Of a stretch of DNA of 64,000 nt, positions 4,052-58,886 are shown piece after piece. Position numbers and translations under genes: made by a program. The stretch's first letter is position 1, and each line of letters starts with the position of its first letter. The DNA comes from an uncultured Candidatus Saccharibacteria bacterium (GTDB lineage: Bacteria > Patescibacteriota > Minisyncoccia > Phycocordibacterales > GWA1-40-21). The DNA lies in the NCBI GenBank assembly GCA_964605355.1, contig CAZSCE010000001.1:103-64102 (forward strand). The letters are read 5' to 3'. A model generated the notes under the pieces. It saw only the letters and a list, made by a program, of their open reading frames with translations, searched no databases and had not been told where the DNA came from.

Positions 4052-5084
4052 TTAAAACTTCAATATAATCATTTAAATTTTCCAAAATAATACCGGTACC
4101 TCTGGCAATTGCTGTTAATGGATCACTGGCAATATATACCGGGATTTTTAATTCTTCATTCAAAAGTACATCTAAACCACGAATCAAGGCTCCACCACCC
4201 ACTAAATATATACCTCTCTGCATAATATCAGAAACAATTTCCGGCGGGGTGGTCTCCAAAACTTCTTTTACTGTTTCTACTAGGGTGGCAATACTTTGAG
4301 CCATAGCTTCACGCACATCACCATCAGTAATAATTACCTCTCTTGGTAAACCAGTGACCAAATCACGGCCTTTGACGGAAACTTCCATACTTTGCTCCAG
4401 CATGACAGAACCAACATTTATTTTAATCTCTTCAGCGGTTTTTTCACCAATTAATATTTTAAATTCGCTTCTAATGTAAGTAATAATATCTGTGTTTAAT
4501 CTATCACCAGCAATACGCAGATTTTTTGACTTTACAATTCCACCAAGGGAAATGACGGCGATATCAGAGGTGCCACCGCCAATATCAATCACCATACTGC
4601 CCACCGGACTTTTTATAGGTAAGCGAATACCAATAGCGCCGGCCATTGGTTCCTCCACAATATATACCTCACGGGCACCAGCATTCCTGGTGGCATCACG
4701 CACCGCCCTTATCTCCACGTTTGTTACGCCCGAGGGAACGCCCACCACTACACGCGGGCCTAATGGTTTTGGTGACAGTTCCTCAGCTTTTTTAACCAAA
4801 TAAGCAATCATTTCCTCCGTCACTTCAAAATCAGAAATCACACCATCCACGAGCGGGCGAACAGCTACAATGTGCGGCGGAGTTCTACCCAGCATGGCTT
4901 TGGCTTGTGACCCAACGGCCACCACGCGCCCAGTCTTCTGATTCAAGGCCACCACAGATGGCTCATTTACCACAATACCTTTTCCAGCTAAATATACTAT
5001 AGTATTAGCTGTTCCCAGATCAATTCCGATATCGTTGGAAAAGCGTCTGTATATTTTTGCTTTTAATTTTTCAAAAAATTCCAT
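4014..5084 (-). CDS. mreB: actin-like rod-shape protein MreB
   Basis: IGIDLGTANTIVY...NEPSVVA...VIDIGGGTSDIAVISLGGIV...LVGGGALIRGLD are the actin-fold phosphate 1, phosphate 2 and adenosine motifs typical of MreB. Confidence 0.9.
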   Translation of the reverse strand: MEFFEKLKAKIYRRFSNDIGIDLGTANTIVYLAGKGIVVNEPSVVALNQKTGRVVAVGSQAKAMLGRTPPHIVAVRPLVDGVISDFEVTEEMIAYLVKKAEELSPKPLGPRVVVGVPSGVTNVEIRAVRDATRNAGAREVYIVEEPMAGAIGIRLPIKSPVGSMVIDIGGGTSDIAVISLGGIVKSKNLRIAGDRLNTDIITYIRSEFKILIGEKTAEEIKINVGSVMLEQSMEVSVKGRDLVTGLPREVIITDGDVREAMAQSIATLVETVKEVLETTPPEIVSDIMQRGIYLVGGGALIRGLDVLLNEELKIPVYIASDPLTAIARGTGIILENLNDYIEVLIENEDELPPKKQ

Positions 5085-53967: not shown

Positions 53968-54843
53968 TTAATTTAATTTAAAATAATCAAAAAGGGCTTT
54001 AATACCCGCTAAATTTTTCTCCCACTCCACGGTCTCATGCGTAGAGAGCTCTACTGTGATGGTGGGAATATTTATAGAGGCCAGCCAATCACCAGCATCA
54101 CCAGTGATAACATAGCTGTTAAACGTCCTGGCCTTGGCATATCCCGCCGCTGTGGAATATATATCCATAATATTATTTGTTTCAGCTAAAACCCCCGCCT
54201 GACATTCCGAAGCATAAATAGTATTTGACATGCTATGCCAAAAAATTACAGCTTTGGGTTTGTTATTTAAAACAAAATCCCGAATGGACCTAGCCTCTGG
54301 CTCGGAAAAAACTGTTTTCCCCGCGCTCACAATATTTGTTTTCCAAGTACTAGTAGCTTGCCATTTACAATCAAAATTTCTATTCAAGTCTACTTTGTTT
54401 CCATTAAACCGACCGGTACCATTTGGCAAATCCGTCTTTACATCCGCCAAAACAAACCGCCCTTCTTTACCGGTCACCTGATATAAACCATCGGGATTAG
54501 CAGAGGGAATAACGGTCACCGCCATATTTTCCGGAATCATTTCTGGATTAGCTTTTAAATAATCCATAAATTTATAAGCGAGCATCACACTGTTCCACTC
54601 ATAACCACCATGAATACCCCCCACAAAAAGTAACGGCTCTTTACCCTGTCCATAAGTATAGGCTTCTATTTTACGCCCCTGGGTAGAAGTGCCAACAATT
54701 TCATATTTTGGCCCCGTCTCCACTACTGGCGCTGTAATAATTATTGGCGCTGACTTATAGAAGAATGAATAATAAATCACTCCACCCAAACCAAATAGAA
54801 TAACTATAAAAATAATTATTTTCTTCAGAGAATATTCCCGCAT
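53968..54843 (-). CDS. M14-family zinc carboxypeptidase (murein-peptide/gamma-D-Glu-DAP peptidase-like), membrane-anchored, paralog 2
   Basis: GGIHGGYEWNS (zinc His/Glu), DLNRNFDC (the substrate-binding NR of the NRNW box), FWHSMSN (third zinc His) and TVELSTHE (catalytic Glu). Confidence 0.7.
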   Translation of the reverse strand: MREYSLKKIIIFIVILFGLGGVIYYSFFYKSAPIIITAPVVETGPKYEIVGTSTQGRKIEAYTYGQGKEPLLFVGGIHGGYEWNSVMLAYKFMDYLKANPEMIPENMAVTVIPSANPDGLYQVTGKEGRFVLADVKTDLPNGTGRFNGNKVDLNRNFDCKWQATSTWKTNIVSAGKTVFSEPEARSIRDFVLNNKPKAVIFWHSMSNTIYASECQAGVLAETNNIMDIYSTAAGYAKARTFNSYVITGDAGDWLASINIPTITVELSTHETVEWEKNLAGIKALFDYFKLN

Positions 54844-55748
54844 TATTTAGTATAATATTTAATGATAGCAGTAATACCGGCCTGATTTTTGCTCCAGTCA
54901 GTATCAGTATGATTTGTCAAAAGAATGCTAATAGCGGGCACATTTATTTTAGCTAACCAATTTGTCAGATCTCCGGTAGTGGCATAATCATTGAAGGCGG
55001 AATATGAAGGATAAGCAGAAGCTTTGGCATAAGCCGTATTCATAGCCTTGGTCTCAGTGGAAATACCATTATTACAACTAGAAGAATATACCCCGCCAGC
55101 CGAGGCATAATAAGCAATAACCGCTTTTGGCTTACTGGTTTCAATATAATTCTTTACAGCTAAACTTTCTGATTCAGAAAAGGCCGCTGTACCGCCACTT
55201 ACAGTTTTGCTCTGCCACATGCCAGTTGATTTCCAATCACAATCAAAGTTTCTGTTTAAATCCACCTCATTAGCATTAAAACGTCCGGCCACAGATAAAG
55301 CTTGTGAAGAGGAAACATCAGAACTTTTAAAGCGCCCTTCAACATCCACCACTTTATTTAAACCATCCGGATTCAAAACTGGAATAATAGTTACTTTTAC
55401 ATTAGTAGGAATAACACTTGGATTAGCTTTTAAATAATCCATGGCACTATAAGCCATCAAAGTTGTGTTCCAAGCATAACCACCATGAATACCAGCCACT
55501 AATAATATTTCATCAGCTCCGGTACCATAGTGATAGGCAGTGATATCCTTACCATCTACTGACTTTCCAACCACGGTTTCTACTTTATTAACCGGCGTAG
55601 TGGTGGCGGTAGTGGTGGCCTGATTTTTCAAAAGCTCGGCTGCTTTTTGCTCATTAGTTAAGGTAACAGTCTTTGAAGAATTAATATAATAATAAATACC
55701 AAGGATAATAAGTAAGGCTACAATAATCCAAACAATTGTTTTCTTCAT
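54843..55748 (-). CDS. M14-family zinc carboxypeptidase, membrane-anchored, paralog 1
   Basis: AGIHGGYAWNT, DLNRNFDC, AYYASAGG and ILLTNHTD are the same motif set as in 53968..54843. A tandem duplicate. Confidence 0.7.
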   Translation of the reverse strand: MKKTIVWIIVALLIILGIYYYINSSKTVTLTNEQKAAELLKNQATTTATTTPVNKVETVVGKSVDGKDITAYHYGTGADEILLVAGIHGGYAWNTTLMAYSAMDYLKANPSVIPTNVKVTIIPVLNPDGLNKVVDVEGRFKSSDVSSSQALSVAGRFNANEVDLNRNFDCDWKSTGMWQSKTVSGGTAAFSESESLAVKNYIETSKPKAVIAYYASAGGVYSSSCNNGISTETKAMNTAYAKASAYPSYSAFNDYATTGDLTNWLAKINVPAISILLTNHTDTDWSKNQAGITAIIKYYTK

Positions 55749-55858: not shown

Positions 55859-56164
55859 CTATTTCTCTCCTTTTAGGATAATCCGCTTGGAAAAACCGCC
55901 TTTTTCATTCCTTTTTCTTATTTTAATATCCTCCACATTTTGATACTCTGTCAATCCTTTTAGCGCTTCCACCACTTCTACCACATCAGCCAGTTCCTCC
56001 GGATCTCCACCGGACTCGGTAAATTCCCCCACCTCCTCTGCTAGTTTTTTTATCAATTCAGCCCTGTATTCCTCCGGGGTAGCAATCCTCTTTTCATACG
56101 GCACACCCTTGGCATCAAGTATTTCCGGTATCCTATCCCGCACTAATTTATTATATGATTCCAT
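55859..56164 (-). CDS. MazG-like nucleoside triphosphate pyrophosphohydrolase (all-alpha NTP-PPase)
   Basis: YNKLVRDRIPEI...ELIKKLAEEVGEF...EELADVVEVVEAL is the MazG/HisE-type EExxE metal-binding helix pattern. 101 aa. Confidence 0.55.
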   Translation of the reverse strand: MESYNKLVRDRIPEILDAKGVPYEKRIATPEEYRAELIKKLAEEVGEFTESGGDPEELADVVEVVEALKGLTEYQNVEDIKIRKRNEKGGFSKRIILKGEK

Positions 56165-56184: not shown

Positions 56185-56436
56185 CTAAGGCTTTTTAAAT
56201 AGAGCTAATTTTTCAGCTCTTTTCCACCTTTTAATCTCGGCCTCACGCGTTCGGGCCTTAGCAAGGGTTCTAAATTGTTCCTTATATTTTAAAATTACTG
56301 GCCGGCGGATTTTTGTGTAGTGGGCGCCGGCCTTGGCATGATTATGCTGATGTAATCTTTTTTCCAGATCATTGGTACTGCCAACATATAAAGTCTTGTC
56401 AGCACATTCTAGGATGTAGGTGAAATATTTGGACAT
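56185..56436 (-). CDS. GIY-YIG nuclease-superfamily protein (YhbQ/UPF0213-like)
   Basis: [28 protein letters not shown]...AHYTK: the GIY-YIG motifs, the catalytic Arg/Glu region and the YT motif. Confidence 0.75.
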
Positions 56437-56492
56437 AATTTTCTCGGCCGAAATTTACTAATTTCGGCACGAATTTTACGCTTAAAATTCGG

Positions 56493-56563
56493 CTGGGGGA
56501 TTTGGAATCGAACCAAAATAAACGGATCCAAAATCCGTTGTCCTACCTTTAGACGATCCCCCA
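56493..56563 (-). tRNA. tRNA-Gln (anticodon TTG)
   Basis: Manual cloverleaf on the minus strand: acceptor TGGGGGA/TCCCCCA (U1-A72), U8, D-arm GTCT-AAAGGTA-GGAC, anticodon arm ACGGA-TTTTGGA-TCCGT (U33, anticodon TTG), variable loop TTAT, T-arm TTTGG-TTCGATT-CCAAA and discriminator G. Confidence 0.7.
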
Positions 56564-57244
56564 ATATTTATTTATACCCCTTATCCAACCCGTCACTTGA
56601 CGGTTCAAGGACGAGCTCCTATATACTTTAACTCTTAATTGGCCATTATACAAGTCCCCAATATTTTTTCTTTTGGTATTTATTTTGTTTCTCTTAAAAT
56701 ATACAGTCTTAAAATAACTGATTGGTAAACCAGTCTTCTGTGACCAAAATTTTTGAAAACGTCCAACTTCATCATGAAAAATATCGTGGGTATAAATTTC
56801 ACAACCAATTTCTTCTTTTTTAACACCAACAATCTCAGTTAACCATTTTAAAAATAAAATAATCATTTCTGGATCAGAATTAGAGAAATTTATACCAGAC
56901 CCAGGACGTCCTTCCTTCTCCTTTGACCCCTCCGCCCAATATAAGGCAGTGCCAATAAGCCATAACTCTCTTTTTGATAACTTTCCAATTTCACCCTCGG
57001 CTAAATTAAATATTTTATTTGATCTTTCAATTCTTTGGCGTCTTTTAGCCTGACCACCACGCAGTGAAGCCAGCCTTCTCTTTTCAGTAAAAAATTGTTT
57101 GACTTCCTTGACCATACCAACAGAGCGAAGCCATTCAGAAAGAGTAGATTTTGCCACAGGAACAATCTTCATTATTTCAGAATAAGTTTTCCCTTCTTTT
57201 CTTAGGGCTACCGCTTTATTTCTTAATTCAATTTTCACGAACAT
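56549..57244 (-). CDS. HTH-containing LAGLIDADG-like (single-motif) endonuclease-like protein whose 3' end overlaps tRNA-Gln
   Basis: N-terminal HTH (KAVALRKEGKTYSEIMKIVPVAKSTLSEWL). Then LIGTALYWAEGSKEK (the LAGLIDADG-type L-x-G-x-x-x-x-a-E/D-G-s box) followed by DPEMIILFLKWLTEI. The last 5 codons are encoded by the 5' acceptor half of the tRNA. Confidence 0.4.
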   Translation of the reverse strand: MFVKIELRNKAVALRKEGKTYSEIMKIVPVAKSTLSEWLRSVGMVKEVKQFFTEKRRLASLRGGQAKRRQRIERSNKIFNLAEGEIGKLSKRELWLIGTALYWAEGSKEKEGRPGSGINFSNSDPEMIILFLKWLTEIVGVKKEEIGCEIYTHDIFHDEVGRFQKFWSQKTGLPISYFKTVYFKRNKINTKRKNIGDLYNGQLRVKVYRSSSLNRQVTGWIRGINKYWGIV

Positions 57245-57326
57245 TAATCCTAAGTCCTAGTATACATGATTAGTGTTCTAAAAGCTAGTCTGCTTTCCCC
57301 GCCTTTCTTAGGAGGGGACGTCATTC

Positions 57327-58367
57327 TTATGACAGGGGTGGTTTAATAATCTTCCCCAACACTAACTCCAGAACCATCTCCGGCAGGTAAGCGTGGGAGA
57401 CTAAATCATAGTGGGATAATAGGGTGAGAAGGGTGTCAGAATTAATGGAAGATGGGGTTTGGGCGGAGAGAGATTTCAAGAAATTAAAATCTGTATCCGT
57501 CATTTCTTCCTTTAACTTTTCTTCTGATGATTTTAAAGTGCGGAGCAGTAATACGGCGCGGATTTTATGTAAAACCAGTTTAAAAAATAAAAGCAAATCA
57601 ATATTAGCCTCCGTGGCGGCAGAAACAGCGGAGAGGCCTAATTCTAAATTATTATCGGCAATCGCCCGAATAAAATCATTTACCAACTCCCCTTTTGGCG
57701 CCCCAGTGACCAGCACTACTTCATCTAGAGAAATCTTTTTATCTTTTGATGAACCCATCACTTTTTGTAAAATACTCTGGGCATCACGGAAAGAACCATC
57801 ACCCAGCAAGGCCACCAAATCAGCCGAGGCCGGCTCTAAAATAAAACCTTCTTTTTTAGCAATAGCAGTCACCACATCTTTCAAAACTTTCTGCGTTGGC
57901 TTTTTAAAGGAAAAAGTTTGGCAACGAGAAATAACGGTTTCCGGAATTTTCTCCGCCTCCGTGGTAGCCATAATAAAAATCACATGGGCTGGTGGCTCCT
58001 CCAGGGTTTTTAGCAAAGCGTTCCAGGCGGATTTTGAGAGCATATGGGCTTCATCTAAAATGTATACTTTGTATTTTGATTCAAAGGGAATGGTATTTAC
58101 ACTTTCATTTAAAGCCCGGATCTCATCCACACCATTATTAGAAGCGGCATCTATTTCTGTAATGTCATTGGCACTGGTCCCTATTTCATGAGCAAAGATT
58201 CTGGCTACGGAAGTTTTCCCTGTACCGCGGCTGCCGGAAAAAATATAAGCGTGAGCCAGGCGCTCCAGCTCAATAGAAGATTGTAAAACTTTTACAATAT
58301 GATCCTGACCCAAAACTTCTTTAAAATTTTGTGGACGGTATTTCCGATATAATGCGGTATCTGACAT
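57327..58367 (-). CDS. dnaX: DNA polymerase III gamma/tau subunit (short form)
   Basis: ALYRKYRPQNFKEVLGQDHIV...FSGSRGTGKTSVARIFA, YILDEAHMLS, ISRCQ. The start is set at the internal Met (MSDTALYRKYRP), which lies 6 nt after a TATACT box, so the mRNA is leaderless. Confidence 0.9.
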   Translation of the reverse strand: MSDTALYRKYRPQNFKEVLGQDHIVKVLQSSIELERLAHAYIFSGSRGTGKTSVARIFAHEIGTSANDITEIDAASNNGVDEIRALNESVNTIPFESKYKVYILDEAHMLSKSAWNALLKTLEEPPAHVIFIMATTEAEKIPETVISRCQTFSFKKPTQKVLKDVVTAIAKKEGFILEPASADLVALLGDGSFRDAQSILQKVMGSSKDKKISLDEVVLVTGAPKGELVNDFIRAIADNNLELGLSAVSAATEANIDLLLFFKLVLHKIRAVLLLRTLKSSEEKLKEEMTDTDFNFLKSLSAQTPSSINSDTLLTLLSHYDLVSHAYLPEMVLELVLGKIIKPPLS

Positions 58368-58407
58368 GAATGTAGTATAGCAGAAAAATAAAATAAAAAA
58401 ATACATG

Positions 58408-58446
58408 AAAAAAGGGCCGGCGCAGAAACTGGAAGCGCGCCGGCCC
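58408..58446 (-). terminator. strong intrinsic terminator GGGCCGGCGCGC-loop-GCGCCGGCCC plus a 6-U tail (minus strand), immediately upstream of the dnaX promoter
   Basis: 10-12-bp G+C stem with an A6 run on the plus strand. It ends the roughly 300-nt unassigned transcript region. Confidence 0.75.
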
Positions 58447-58727
58447 TCATACTCACCTACACGGATCCTTGTTGTGACTCACAACATTTTCCTTTCCCTT
58501 TGGGGGTTAAGGACTCTAATCTAGGATTTTGCTCCTCACTAGTGCTCGGGACTAGCTACATAGTGATTTGCGACATCTACGGCGTTTACCCCGCAGACCT
58601 AGATTGGATCACCTCCTTTCTTGTGTTATTGTCCCGCCCGCGAAAATTGTGAACTGTTCTGCTGTACAGTGTATTCCTATTTTTTAAAAATGAAAAGGGT
58701 AAATTAAAATAACCTGTGGATAAAGGT

Positions 58728-58856
58728 AAAAAGAAGCGGGCAGTTCCAGAAGGAACTGCCCGCGATCTAACCAATATGGTTTTCTGATGGACCTTCCATG
58801 GTCAACCCCCTTTCATAGCTGTGTACTGTTACTGCCACTCCTGTGGCGACCTTAGA
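58728..58856 (-). ncRNA. candidate small RNA of about 130 nt: consensus promoter, three hairpins, intrinsic terminator
   Basis: Promoter TTGACA (58885..58890, overlapping the dus stop), a 16-nt spacer, then TATACT (58863..58868). The terminator GCGGGCAGTTCC-agaa-GGAACTGCCCGC plus U-run lies at 58726..58763. Internal hairpins GCCAC-agga-GTGGC and GACC-atggaa-GGTC are present, as is a 10-codon micro-ORF with an AAGGGGG SD. Confidence 0.4.
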
Positions 58857-58886
58857 TATACAAGTATAGCATACCCACTAAAATTG

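What the first reader, a model, noticed from the sequence alone, without database searches (positions are those of the whole stretch)
56185..57244. Nuclease cluster at tRNA-Gln: a GIY-YIG protein, then the tRNA, then an HTH plus LAGLIDADG-like gene whose last codons are encoded by the tRNA
On the minus strand the order is HTH/LAGLIDADG-like ORF, tRNA-Gln(TTG), then the GIY-YIG (YhbQ-like) protein, with a MazG-like NTPase just beyond. The 231-aa ORF has a resolvase-type HTH and a single LAGLIDADG-like box (LIGTALYWAEGSKEK). Its C-terminal residues ...KYWGIV are translated from the complement of the tRNA acceptor and D-stem (TGGGGGATCGTC). An overlap of an endonuclease gene with a tRNA gene is the footprint expected of a homing-endonuclease or mobile-element insertion that used the tRNA as its target. 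It could also be a domesticated derivative.
Basis: partly seen in the sequence, partly recalled or inferred. Interest (0 to 1): 0.5.

Follow-up and report, generated by a model that had tools for sequence, protein, structure and literature searches.

The report
tRNA-hugging LAGLIDADG-like endonuclease gene family
The 231-residue gene whose last codons lie inside tRNA-Gln belongs to a large, unannotated family (a DNA-binding helix-turn-helix plus a divergent LAGLIDADG nuclease-like domain) that always sits against tRNA genes in candidate-phyla-radiation bacteria and huge-phage-like contigs, and is most likely a free-standing homing endonuclease that uses tRNA genes as its landing site.

The parts
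56549..57244 (-). 231-aa gene ('X'): N-terminal HTH, long basic linker helix, C-terminal LAGLIDADG-like domain. Member of an unannotated family.
   Evidence: ORF. 2375 homologues, all 'hypothetical'. Superfamily of 1627 cluster representatives at E<=1e-30. pI 10.2. dN/dS 0.06-0.15.
57122..57241 (-). Three-helix HTH (residues 2-41), resolvase/IS630/Tc3 type
56987..57085 (-). Long basic linker helix (residues 54-86)
   Evidence: Model. Residues 46-88 have pI 11.3.
56564..56980 (-). LAGLIDADG-like alpha/beta domain (residues 89-227)
56915..56959 (-). Motif LIGTALYWAEGSKEK (residues 96-110), at the C-terminal end of the domain's first helix. Glu105 and Gly106 are invariant; Lys108 is at least 90% conserved.
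   Evidence: Invariant columns across bacterial and phage-type members. Same E-x-x-K spacing as I-DmoI E117/K120, residues that WhiA lacks (PMC3384342). hhalign places YWAEGSK on I-DmoI YVAEGDK, but with probability only 1%.
56549..56563 (-). 15-nt overlap: the last four codons plus the stop of X are tRNA-Gln nt 1-15 (TGG GGG ATC GTC TAA)
   Evidence: The same 15-nt overlap, with TAA in the D-loop, occurs in 22 of 73 related loci.
56491..56563 (-). tRNA-Gln (anticodon UUG), the conserved partner of X
   Evidence: Directly downstream of X on the same strand in all 74 evaluable genome loci.
57327..58406 (-). dnaX (clamp-loader gamma/tau), the usual upstream flank. dnaX-tRNA-Gln is the empty-site configuration.
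   Evidence: Pfam DNA_pol3_delta2 E 3.9e-35. A dnaX homologue lies somewhere within the 4 kb upstream of X in most loci, sometimes with other genes between. It directly abuts tRNA-Gln in L100, L101, L139, L150 and L167.
57245..57326 (-). 82-nt dnaX-X spacer with an extended -10-like TGTATACT about 20 nt before the ATG (weak; possible own promoter)
   Evidence: Read from the sequence. Not reported by the sigma-70 scan. A similar TG-TATAAT is seen in L031.
56185..56436 (-). GIY-YIG (YhbQ-like) 83-aa gene. A neighbour only, not part of the conserved unit.
   Evidence: Pfam E 1.1e-16. A homologue lies within 4 kb downstream in 8 of 80 loci, at variable distance.
55859..56164 (-). Identity unconfirmed; not part of the unit.
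   Evidence: No hits. No homologue in the related loci.

Best explanation
X is a free-standing homing-endonuclease gene of a divergent, previously unannotated LAGLIDADG-like family that has an extra N-terminal HTH.

Shown:
- It occupies one fixed chromosomal site, immediately 5' of tRNA-Gln and normally between dnaX and tRNA-Gln.
- That site is polymorphic among Paceibacteria/Minisyncoccia: occupied, empty, or occupied by another allelic type.
- The motif acid and lysine are conserved.
- Relatives sit against many different tRNA genes, on either strand, in huge-phage-like contigs.

Inferred:
- The protein dimerises through the motif helix, as single-domain LAGLIDADG enzymes do.
- It binds DNA with its beta-sheet, with added affinity from the HTH and the basic linker.
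- It cuts the tRNA-Gln locus of genomes that lack it or carry another allele.
- Repair from an X-bearing copy then copies X in, together with adjacent tRNA sequence.
- The tRNA gene is the landing pad because its sequence cannot drift.
- X is probably co-transcribed with the tRNA. In the overlap alleles, RNase P cleavage at tRNA +1 would remove the last four codons and the stop from the mRNA.

For: 2. Catalytic-type residues. Glu105-Gly106 at the helix end are invariant and Lys108 is at least 90% conserved over 62 diverse members. This matches I-DmoI E117/K120, which the non-nuclease WhiA has lost (PMC3384342).

3. Fused two-domain versions exist. P0241 is HTH plus two tandem C-domains. P0254, P0275 and P0315 each hold two full units. 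This mirrors the homodimer-to-monomer path of LAGLIDADG enzymes.

4. Fixed site. In all 74 evaluable genome loci (73 intact, one frameshifted) the stop of X lies inside tRNA-Gln or 0-27 nt upstream of it.

5. Empty sites. dnaX is followed by tRNA-Gln after about 4-83 nt in L100, L101, L139, L150 and L167, with no detectable remnant of X. These loci nest within X-bearing clades with 100% bootstrap.

6. Horizontal exchange.
- dnaX groups (L028, L038, L059) at 97.5% bootstrap. X groups (L031, L043, L059) at 100%.
- A sliding window places the switch at about X residue 105.
- The anticodon-arm allele of L059 matches that of L031 and L043.
- Two C-domain allele types differ by 44-48% within one clade.

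7. Relatives at 23-36% identity. All 17 distinct contexts (19 loci, plus L224) have a tRNA gene within 153 nt. About 13 tRNA identities are involved, and five loci are antisense to the tRNAs. One array also holds an HNH gene.

8. Precedent. T4 SegB is a free-standing homing endonuclease in a tRNA cluster and recognises a conserved tRNA-gene motif (PMC2330249).
Against: - No cleavage data exist.
- There is no sequence-profile link to LAGLIDADG families.
- X broadly co-diverges with dnaX (Mantel r 0.54, 0 of 2000 permutations). No near-identical X is seen across distant hosts.
- dN/dS is as low as for dnaX: 0.086 against 0.066.
- Only 1 of 80 copies is disrupted (L060), whereas the classical homing cycle predicts many decayed copies.
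- Empty sites could be plain deletions.
- The one clear chimera could be ordinary homologous recombination.
- The sample of X-bearing loci was selected by X itself, so prevalence is not measured.
Confidence: 0.5

Rival explanations
1. Domesticated DNA-binding protein: a WhiA-like regulator built from a LAGLIDADG scaffold plus an HTH. It would bind at tRNA genes or promoters and control expression of tRNA-Gln (tRNA arrays in phages), with no DNA cleavage.
For: - X has the same two building blocks as WhiA.
- Purifying selection is strong (dN/dS about 0.1).
- X broadly co-diverges with dnaX.
- Nearly all copies are intact.
- Automatic annotations of relatives read 'transcriptional regulator', but these are based on the HTH only.
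Against: - WhiA lost the motif acid and lysine (PMC3384342). X keeps them invariant or nearly so across the whole superfamily.
- Close relatives do without X.
- Allelic replacement of the C-domain occurred within one clade.
- The architecture differs: one domain and an N-terminal HTH.
- No WhiA Pfam hit.
Confidence: 0.2
2. RNA-level role: a maturase-like or tRNA-precursor-binding protein. It would be encoded on the same transcript as the tRNA and would assist its folding, processing or stability.
For: - The stop-codon/tRNA junction is extremely tight, from 65 nt of overlap (usually 15) to a 27-nt gap, which implies co-transcription.
- Some LAGLIDADG proteins are RNA maturases (established knowledge).
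- The protein is very basic (pI 10.2).
Against: - In five phage-type loci the gene is antisense to the adjacent tRNAs.
- The partner tRNA varies over about 13 identities.
- The gene is dispensable in close relatives whose tRNA-Gln is of the same kind.
- No intron-like RNA is present in the region.
Confidence: 0.08
3. Cargo of another mobile element (an integrase- or transposase-driven island that targets tRNA genes). The adjacency would then reflect that element's site choice, not X's own activity.
For: - tRNA-Gln is a rearrangement and integration hot spot.
- The downstream sequence differs in every locus.
- L038 has a serine recombinase overlapping the tRNA 3' end.
- 13 of 80 contigs end within about 170 nt of the tRNA.
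- The HTH resembles transposase and resolvase HTHs.
Against: - X lies on the 5' side, between dnaX and the tRNA, with no other gene in the insert.
- There is no recombinase or DDE domain in X.
- No duplicated tRNA fragment or terminal repeats were found.
- The insert is always just X.
Confidence: 0.07

Closest known systems
Phage T4 SegB, and similar free-standing homing endonucleases of phage tRNA regions
   Same: A free-standing gene between tRNA genes. [quoted passage not shown] SegB recognises a conserved tRNA-gene motif and drives inheritance of its own gene plus neighbouring tRNA markers (PMC2330249). The phage-type relatives of X sit in tRNA arrays in the same way.
   Different: SegB is a GIY-YIG enzyme, whereas X has a LAGLIDADG-like domain plus an HTH. 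X also has a large chromosomal branch in CPR bacteria fixed at one tRNA (Gln). Cleavage by X is untested.
Single- and double-motif LAGLIDADG homing endonucleases (I-CreI, I-CeuI, I-DmoI, I-Tsp061I)
   Different: No profile-level sequence similarity. The first beta-hairpin is reduced and a helix is inserted. X has an added N-terminal HTH and a basic helix. It is not in an intron or intein.
WhiA/DUF199
   Different: WhiA has two LAGLIDADG domains and a C-terminal HTH, lacks the catalytic acid and base, and is universally present in its clade. X has one domain and an N-terminal HTH, keeps Glu and Lys, and is patchy.
LAGLIDADG endonucleases of rRNA insertion sequences and introns in CPR bacteria (Tsurumaki et al. 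2024, PMC11270868; listed)
   Same: Same host group. Homing-type nucleases that target highly conserved RNA genes.
   Different: Those lie inside rRNA genes. The tRNA-intron survey (PMC13011429) classifies them as LAGLIDADG family and found tRNA-intron HEGs by Pfam scan (E<0.01), with LAGLIDADG hits to PF03161. X has no Pfam LAGLIDADG hit, is intergenic and flanks a tRNA. It would not be detected by such Pfam-based surveys.

Membership tests
LAGLIDADG homing endonucleases | [quoted passage not shown] | tested here: inconclusive
LAGLIDADG homing endonucleases | Sequence-profile match to LAGLIDADG families (e.g. PF00961, PF03161, PF14528) | tested here: not met
   No hit for the window protein or for any of 40 family members. 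A PDB profile search finds only HTH matches. hhalign against I-CreI finds nothing and against I-DmoI gives probability 1%.
LAGLIDADG homing endonucleases | Conserved acidic residue at the C-terminal end of the motif helix, with a nearby conserved lysine | tested here: met
   E105 and G106 are invariant and K108 is at least 90% conserved in 62 sequences spanning both branches. The motif sits at the end of helix 91-105. The comparison residues come from PMC3384342.
LAGLIDADG homing endonucleases | Site-specific double-strand cleavage of a long target leaving 4-nt 3' overhangs | not testable with these tools
   Needs biochemistry.
Homing endonuclease genes in general | Presence/absence polymorphism at one homologous site, with clean empty sites | tested here: met
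   Empty dnaX-tRNA-Gln junctions in L100, L101, L139, L150 and L167. No remnants by HMM search. They nest in X-bearing clades.
Homing endonuclease genes in general | Horizontal spread: gene tree conflicts with flanking or host genes, with co-conversion of flanks | tested here: inconclusive
   One well-supported conflict and one chimera whose tract runs into the tRNA. The overall pattern is co-divergence with dnaX, and there is no global co-variation between C-domain and tRNA.
Homing endonuclease genes in general | Degenerate copies expected from the gain-decay-loss cycle | tested here: not met
   Only L060 is frameshifted among 80 loci, and that could be an assembly error. dN/dS is 0.06-0.15.
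WhiA/DUF199 | Two LAGLIDADG-like domains followed by a C-terminal HTH, with the catalytic acid and base lost | tested here: not met
   X has a single domain and an N-terminal HTH, keeps E105 and K108, and has no WhiA Pfam hit.
Serine recombinase / resolvase | N-terminal catalytic resolvase domain with the active-site serine | tested here: not met
tRNA-targeting integrative element | Duplicated tRNA segment (att) or terminal repeats bounding the insert | tested here: not met
   The tRNA 5' 18-mer occurs once in the window at up to 3 mismatches. No flanking repeats beyond short chance-level matches.
GIY-YIG superfamily, YhbQ-like stand-alone domain (the neighbouring 83-aa gene) | GIY-YIG catalytic domain profile match | tested here: met
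   PF01541, E 1.1e-16, 61.3 bits against a cut-off of 22.6. There is no DNA-binding extension, and the gene is not linked to X in relatives.

The most novel reading that the evidence does not exclude
The family is a tRNA-gene-specific mobilising system: an endonuclease that recognises generic tRNA-gene features and moves itself together with the adjoining tRNA gene, or part of it, as one cassette. This would make it a driver of tRNA-allele exchange in CPR bacteria and of the assembly and shuffling of tRNA arrays in huge phages. The CPR branch could alternatively be a host-retained version that polices or regulates the tRNA-Gln locus.
Probability: 0.15. Interest if true: 0.75.

Novelty: new variant of a known kind. 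Interest (0 to 1): 0.55.

Why it matters
- If the reading is correct, a family of thousands of proteins gets a function. It has 1627 clusters at E<=1e-30 and is invisible to Pfam, NCBIfam, PHROGs and PADLOC.
- It adds a chromosomal, tRNA-flanking class of homing endonuclease to the intron-rich CPR bacteria.
- It links CPR chromosomes to huge-phage tRNA arrays through one gene family.
- It offers compact HTH-plus-single-domain nucleases with presumably long, tRNA-gene-based targets as possible new meganuclease scaffolds.
- The recurrent stop-codon-inside-tRNA arrangement is a natural case in which tRNA 5' processing and completion of translation of one transcript conflict.
- A cultured host (Minisyncoccus archaeiphilus PMX.108) carries an intact copy, so the idea can be tested.

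Tried and rejected
1. Sequence-level placement. Pfam, NCBIfam, PHROGs, PADLOC, and PDB phmmer and profile searches all gave only HTH hits. hhalign against I-CreI found nothing, and against I-DmoI gave an in-register but non-significant alignment.
2. Fold searches. Foldseek against viral structures (BFVD) gave only HTH matches. The AFDB library was unavailable.
3. GenBank phages. No homologue of X or of the phage-type relative was found.
4. Group I intron or other RNA around X. Nothing but the tRNA.
5. Transposon or integration signatures. No tRNA-fragment duplicate and no meaningful flanking repeats.
6. Decayed X in empty or differently occupied sites. None by HMM search of six-frame translations.
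7. Co-evolution of the nuclease domain with the tRNA sequence beyond phylogeny. Partial Mantel r was 0.07, not significant.
8. Exact insertion boundaries from an X-bearing/empty sister pair (L031 against L150). The spacers are too diverged; only the tRNA aligns.
9. 'Nuclease cluster' with GIY-YIG. Rejected, because the linkage is not conserved.
10. 'MazG-like' identity of the 101-aa ORF. Not confirmed by any library.
11. Some dnaX rows of the dN/dS table are artefacts of gapped HSP coordinates (pN about 0.7) and were ignored.
Full report
**What is in the window**

All features below are on the minus strand.

| Feature | Coordinates | Evidence |
|---|---|---|
| dnaX | 57327-58406 | Pfam DNA_pol3_delta2, E 3.9e-35 |
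| Spacer | 57245-57326 (82 nt) | |
| 231-aa ORF 'X' | 56549-57244 | |
| tRNA-Gln(UUG) | 56491-56563 | ARAGORN; Rfam 61.8 bits |
| GIY-YIG gene, 83 aa | 56185-56436 | PF01541, E 1.1e-16 |
| 101-aa ORF | 55859-56164 | |

- X and the tRNA are on the same strand and share 15 nt. TGG GGG ATC GTC TAA encodes W-G-I-V-stop and is tRNA nt 1-15, with the stop in the D-loop.
- K and Y of '...KYWGIV' lie upstream of the tRNA.
- The 101-aa ORF has no hit that would justify 'MazG-like'.

**What the protein is**

- No curated library has a family for it. Pfam gives only sub-threshold HTH hits (HTH_SB E 2.7e-4; HTH_23 in 31 of 40 relatives). NCBIfam, PHROGs and PADLOC give nothing for the C-terminal two thirds.
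- It has 2375 detectable homologues, all named 'hypothetical', from Patescibacteria/Paceibacterota/Minisyncoccia.
- A profile that also includes distant relatives finds 8668 cluster representatives at E<=1e-3, 4967 at <=1e-10 and 1627 at <=1e-30. Most are 217-235 aa.
- AlphaFold2 (pLDDT 84) gives a three-helix HTH (residues 2-41), a long basic helix (54-86) and an alpha/beta domain (89-227).
- Ten of these are LAGLIDADG-fold proteins: WhiA 7.5, I-Tsp061I 6.9, TliVMA intein endonuclease domain 6.9, I-DmoI 6.6, E-DreI 6.5, T. maritima WhiA 6.2, I-CeuI 6.1, PI-PfuI 5.6, I-Vdi141I 5.5 and I-CvuI 5.1.
- The scores are modest, and unrelated alpha/beta sandwiches reach 6.4. The first beta-hairpin is modelled as a loop and a helix is inserted. 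I call the fold LAGLIDADG-like, not proven.

Three further points favour a real relationship and an active enzyme.

1. Both are invariant over 62 sequences from both branches, and Lys108 is at least 90% conserved.
2. This is the spacing of I-DmoI E117/K120. These catalytic residues are exactly what the domesticated, non-cleaving WhiA has lost (PMC3384342).
3. Natural fusions exist, as in the known homodimer-to-monomer evolution of LAGLIDADG enzymes. P0241 is HTH plus two tandem C-domains. P0254, P0275 and P0315 each hold two whole units.

**Genomic behaviour in CPR bacteria**

Junction with tRNA-Gln
- Of 80 genome loci found through the protein, six end before a tRNA could be seen.
- All the other 74 (73 intact, plus frameshifted L060) have tRNA-Gln directly downstream on the same strand.
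- In the 73 intact ones, the stop of X lies inside the tRNA in 26. Of these, 22 overlap by exactly 15 nt using the D-loop TAA, three by 16-21 nt and two by 65 nt.
- In the other 47 the stop lies 0-27 nt upstream of the tRNA.
- The overlap is thus one recurrent state of an extremely tight junction, not a special scar.

Flanks
- In most loci a dnaX homologue lies somewhere within the 4 kb upstream of X, sometimes with other genes between.
- About 16 loci with full upstream sequence lack it, yet keep X-tRNA-Gln.
- The sequence downstream of the tRNA differs in every locus. L038 has a serine recombinase overlapping the tRNA 3' end.

Empty sites
- An independent scan of metagenome contigs used a tRNA-Gln D-arm/anticodon pattern.
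- It returned loci in which dnaX is followed directly by tRNA-Gln, after about 4-83 nt: L100, L101, L139, L150 and L167.
- In other loci, unrelated genes or non-coding spacer fill the gap: L098, L104, L122, L141 and L175.
- Only four loci carry X: L106, L153, L171 and L176.
- HMM searches of six-frame translations find no decayed X in the empty loci.
- In dnaX trees the empty loci nest inside X-bearing clades. The clade {L028, L031, L038, L043, L048, L059 with X; L150 empty; L104 other} has 100% bootstrap. So does {L029, L033, L058 with X; L101 empty}.

**Vertical or horizontal?**

For vertical descent and function
- Overall, X distances track dnaX distances (Mantel r 0.54, 0 of 2000 permutations). 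No near-identical X occurs in distant hosts.
- dN/dS is 0.06-0.15. In the one unsaturated pair it is 0.086, against 0.066 for dnaX.
- Only L060 is frameshifted.

For exchange, within one clade
- dnaX groups (L028, L038, L059) at 97.5% bootstrap.
- X groups (L031, L043, L059) at 100% and (L028, L038) at 99.5%.
- A nucleotide sliding window shows L059 closest to L028/L038 through dnaX and the first half of X. From about residue 105 to the end of the region it is closest to L043/L031.
- Its tRNA has the anticodon-arm allele of L043/L031, but the T-arm of its dnaX relatives.
- The C-domain exists as two allele types: 73-83% identity within a type and 52-56% between types. The N-terminal 100 residues show no such split.
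- This is what a conversion tract starting near the tRNA would leave. One case cannot exclude ordinary recombination.
- There is no global co-variation of C-domain and tRNA beyond phylogeny.

**Relatives outside CPR**

- A scan of IMG/VR found 16 loci at 23-36% identity. Many are on contigs of 73-498 kb.
- A protein search with one of them found 170 more proteins, annotated at most as HTH regulators or 'transposase-like'.
- All 19 loci tabulated have a tRNA gene within 153 nt of the gene.
  - Typically a tRNA ends 43-95 nt before the start.
  - Often another tRNA begins from 15 nt inside the ORF to 58 nt after the stop.
- With L224 these make 17 distinct contexts. The partners are Leu, Cys, Met, His, Val, Asp, Glu, Pro, Gly, Ile, Lys, Arg and Tyr.
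- In five loci the gene is antisense to the tRNAs.
- Three contexts look chromosomal or phage-embedded:
  - an Anaerolineae chromosome, with two tRNA-Met genes then X;
  - a 71-kb bacterial-looking contig, with the stop of X 15 nt before a solitary tRNA-Val;
  - an array that also holds an HNH gene.
- Orientation-independent adjacency to many different tRNA genes points to recognition of tRNA genes as DNA, not to a co-transcriptional role.
- No homologue exists in GenBank phage records.

**Interpretation**

- Shown: a fixed, polymorphic, tRNA-abutting site; conserved catalytic-type residues; fused two-domain forms; at least one allelic replacement; and tRNA-array relatives.
- Inferred: dimerisation, DNA cleavage at tRNA loci lacking the gene or carrying another allele, and repair-mediated copying.
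- The closest functional analogue is T4 SegB. It is a free-standing GIY-YIG homing endonuclease inside a tRNA cluster that recognises the T-psi-C motif of tRNA genes and drags neighbouring tRNA markers with it (PMC2330249).
- X would do the same with a different, LAGLIDADG-like catalytic scaffold.
- The main rival is a WhiA-style domesticated regulator. It is favoured by strong constraint and near-absence of pseudogenes. It is disfavoured by the retained Glu/Lys, the patchiness and the allelic turnover.
- I give homing endonuclease 0.5, regulator 0.2, an RNA-level role 0.08 and cargo of another element 0.07.

**Side consequence**

- No separate sigma-70 promoter is predicted in the X-tRNA junction, and there is no room for one.
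- The tRNA is therefore probably made from the X transcript.
- In overlap alleles such as this window, RNase P cleavage at +1 would leave an mRNA without its last four codons and stop.

**Novelty**

- The family is absent from four curated libraries. It is also not mentioned in the passages searched of a tRNA-intron survey of Patescibacteria (PMC13011429), nor listed in the paper searches on CPR rRNA-insertion endonucleases.
- The kind, a free-standing homing endonuclease next to tRNA genes, is known.
- The scaffold, the architecture and the stable chromosomal tRNA-Gln niche in CPR bacteria are new.
- Verdict: a new variant of a known kind, of moderate to good interest.

Noticed in passing
window 58407-58886 (-), between the Dus-like gene and dnaX: A 480-nt non-coding gap with a near-consensus promoter (TTGACA-16-TGnTATACT, 58890-58863). 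It has two strong terminator-like hairpins, at 58763-58736 and about 58445-58412, just before the dnaX ATG. It also holds GAAAGGAGGTGATCC (58628-58612), complementary to the 16S 3' end. This suggests one or two small RNAs or a leader. No Rfam family reaches threshold (weak CC2171 hit only), and the motif is absent from all related loci.
   Followed up: partly
L059:about 4300-4790, compared with L028, L038, L043 and L031: X of L059 is a chimera. The N-terminal half resembles its dnaX relatives. The C-terminal domain and the tRNA anticodon arm resemble another lineage. The tRNA T-arm again resembles its relatives. The breakpoint lies at the HTH/nuclease-domain boundary.
   Followed up: yes
L004, L009, L015, L022, L028, L032, L037, L044, L049, L050, L069, L072, L078 (contig ends): 13 of 80 contigs stop within about 170 nt of tRNA-Gln. 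Six stop before it and seven after it. The downstream sequence differs in every locus examined. This suggests strain-level variation or an integration hot spot at this tRNA.
   Followed up: partly
L038:4640-6154: A large serine recombinase gene on the opposite strand overlaps the 3' end of tRNA-Gln by about 60 nt. It looks like an integrated element at the same tRNA.
   Followed up: no
L060:3974-4692: This is the only disrupted copy. X is split into two frames near residue 195. It is either a pseudogene or an assembly error.
   Followed up: partly
P0241, P0254, P0275, P0315: Fused forms exist. One has an HTH with two tandem nuclease-like domains. Three high-GC proteins have two complete HTH-plus-domain units in one chain. 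All copies keep the W-x-E-G-x-K motif.
   Followed up: partly
L224:10001-10769 and L217:2751-3669: Phage-type relatives also occur in bacterial-looking chromosomal contexts. In L224 the order is ArgRS, dCTP deaminase, X, then a solitary tRNA-Val 15 nt after the stop. L217 is an Anaerolineae chromosome with two tRNA-Met genes and then X.
   Followed up: partly
window 56546-56572 and 56643-56669: A 27-nt direct repeat at 78% identity. The tRNA leader plus its 5' end (AATAAATATTGGGGGATCGTCTAAAGG) resembles an internal segment of X that encodes the conserved KNIGDLYNG. It is probably chance.
   Followed up: no
window 53968-55748 (-): Two tandem paralogous secreted M14 zinc-carboxypeptidase-like genes of 291 and 301 aa, each with an N-terminal hydrophobic segment. 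Their stop and start overlap at 54843.
   Followed up: no
X against dnaX codon comparisons: In every clean genome pair the synonymous difference is lower in X than in the adjacent dnaX (for example 0.51 against 0.60, 0.58 against 0.74 and 0.59 against 0.76). This could mean more recent shared ancestry of X, or only a composition effect near saturation.
   Followed up: no
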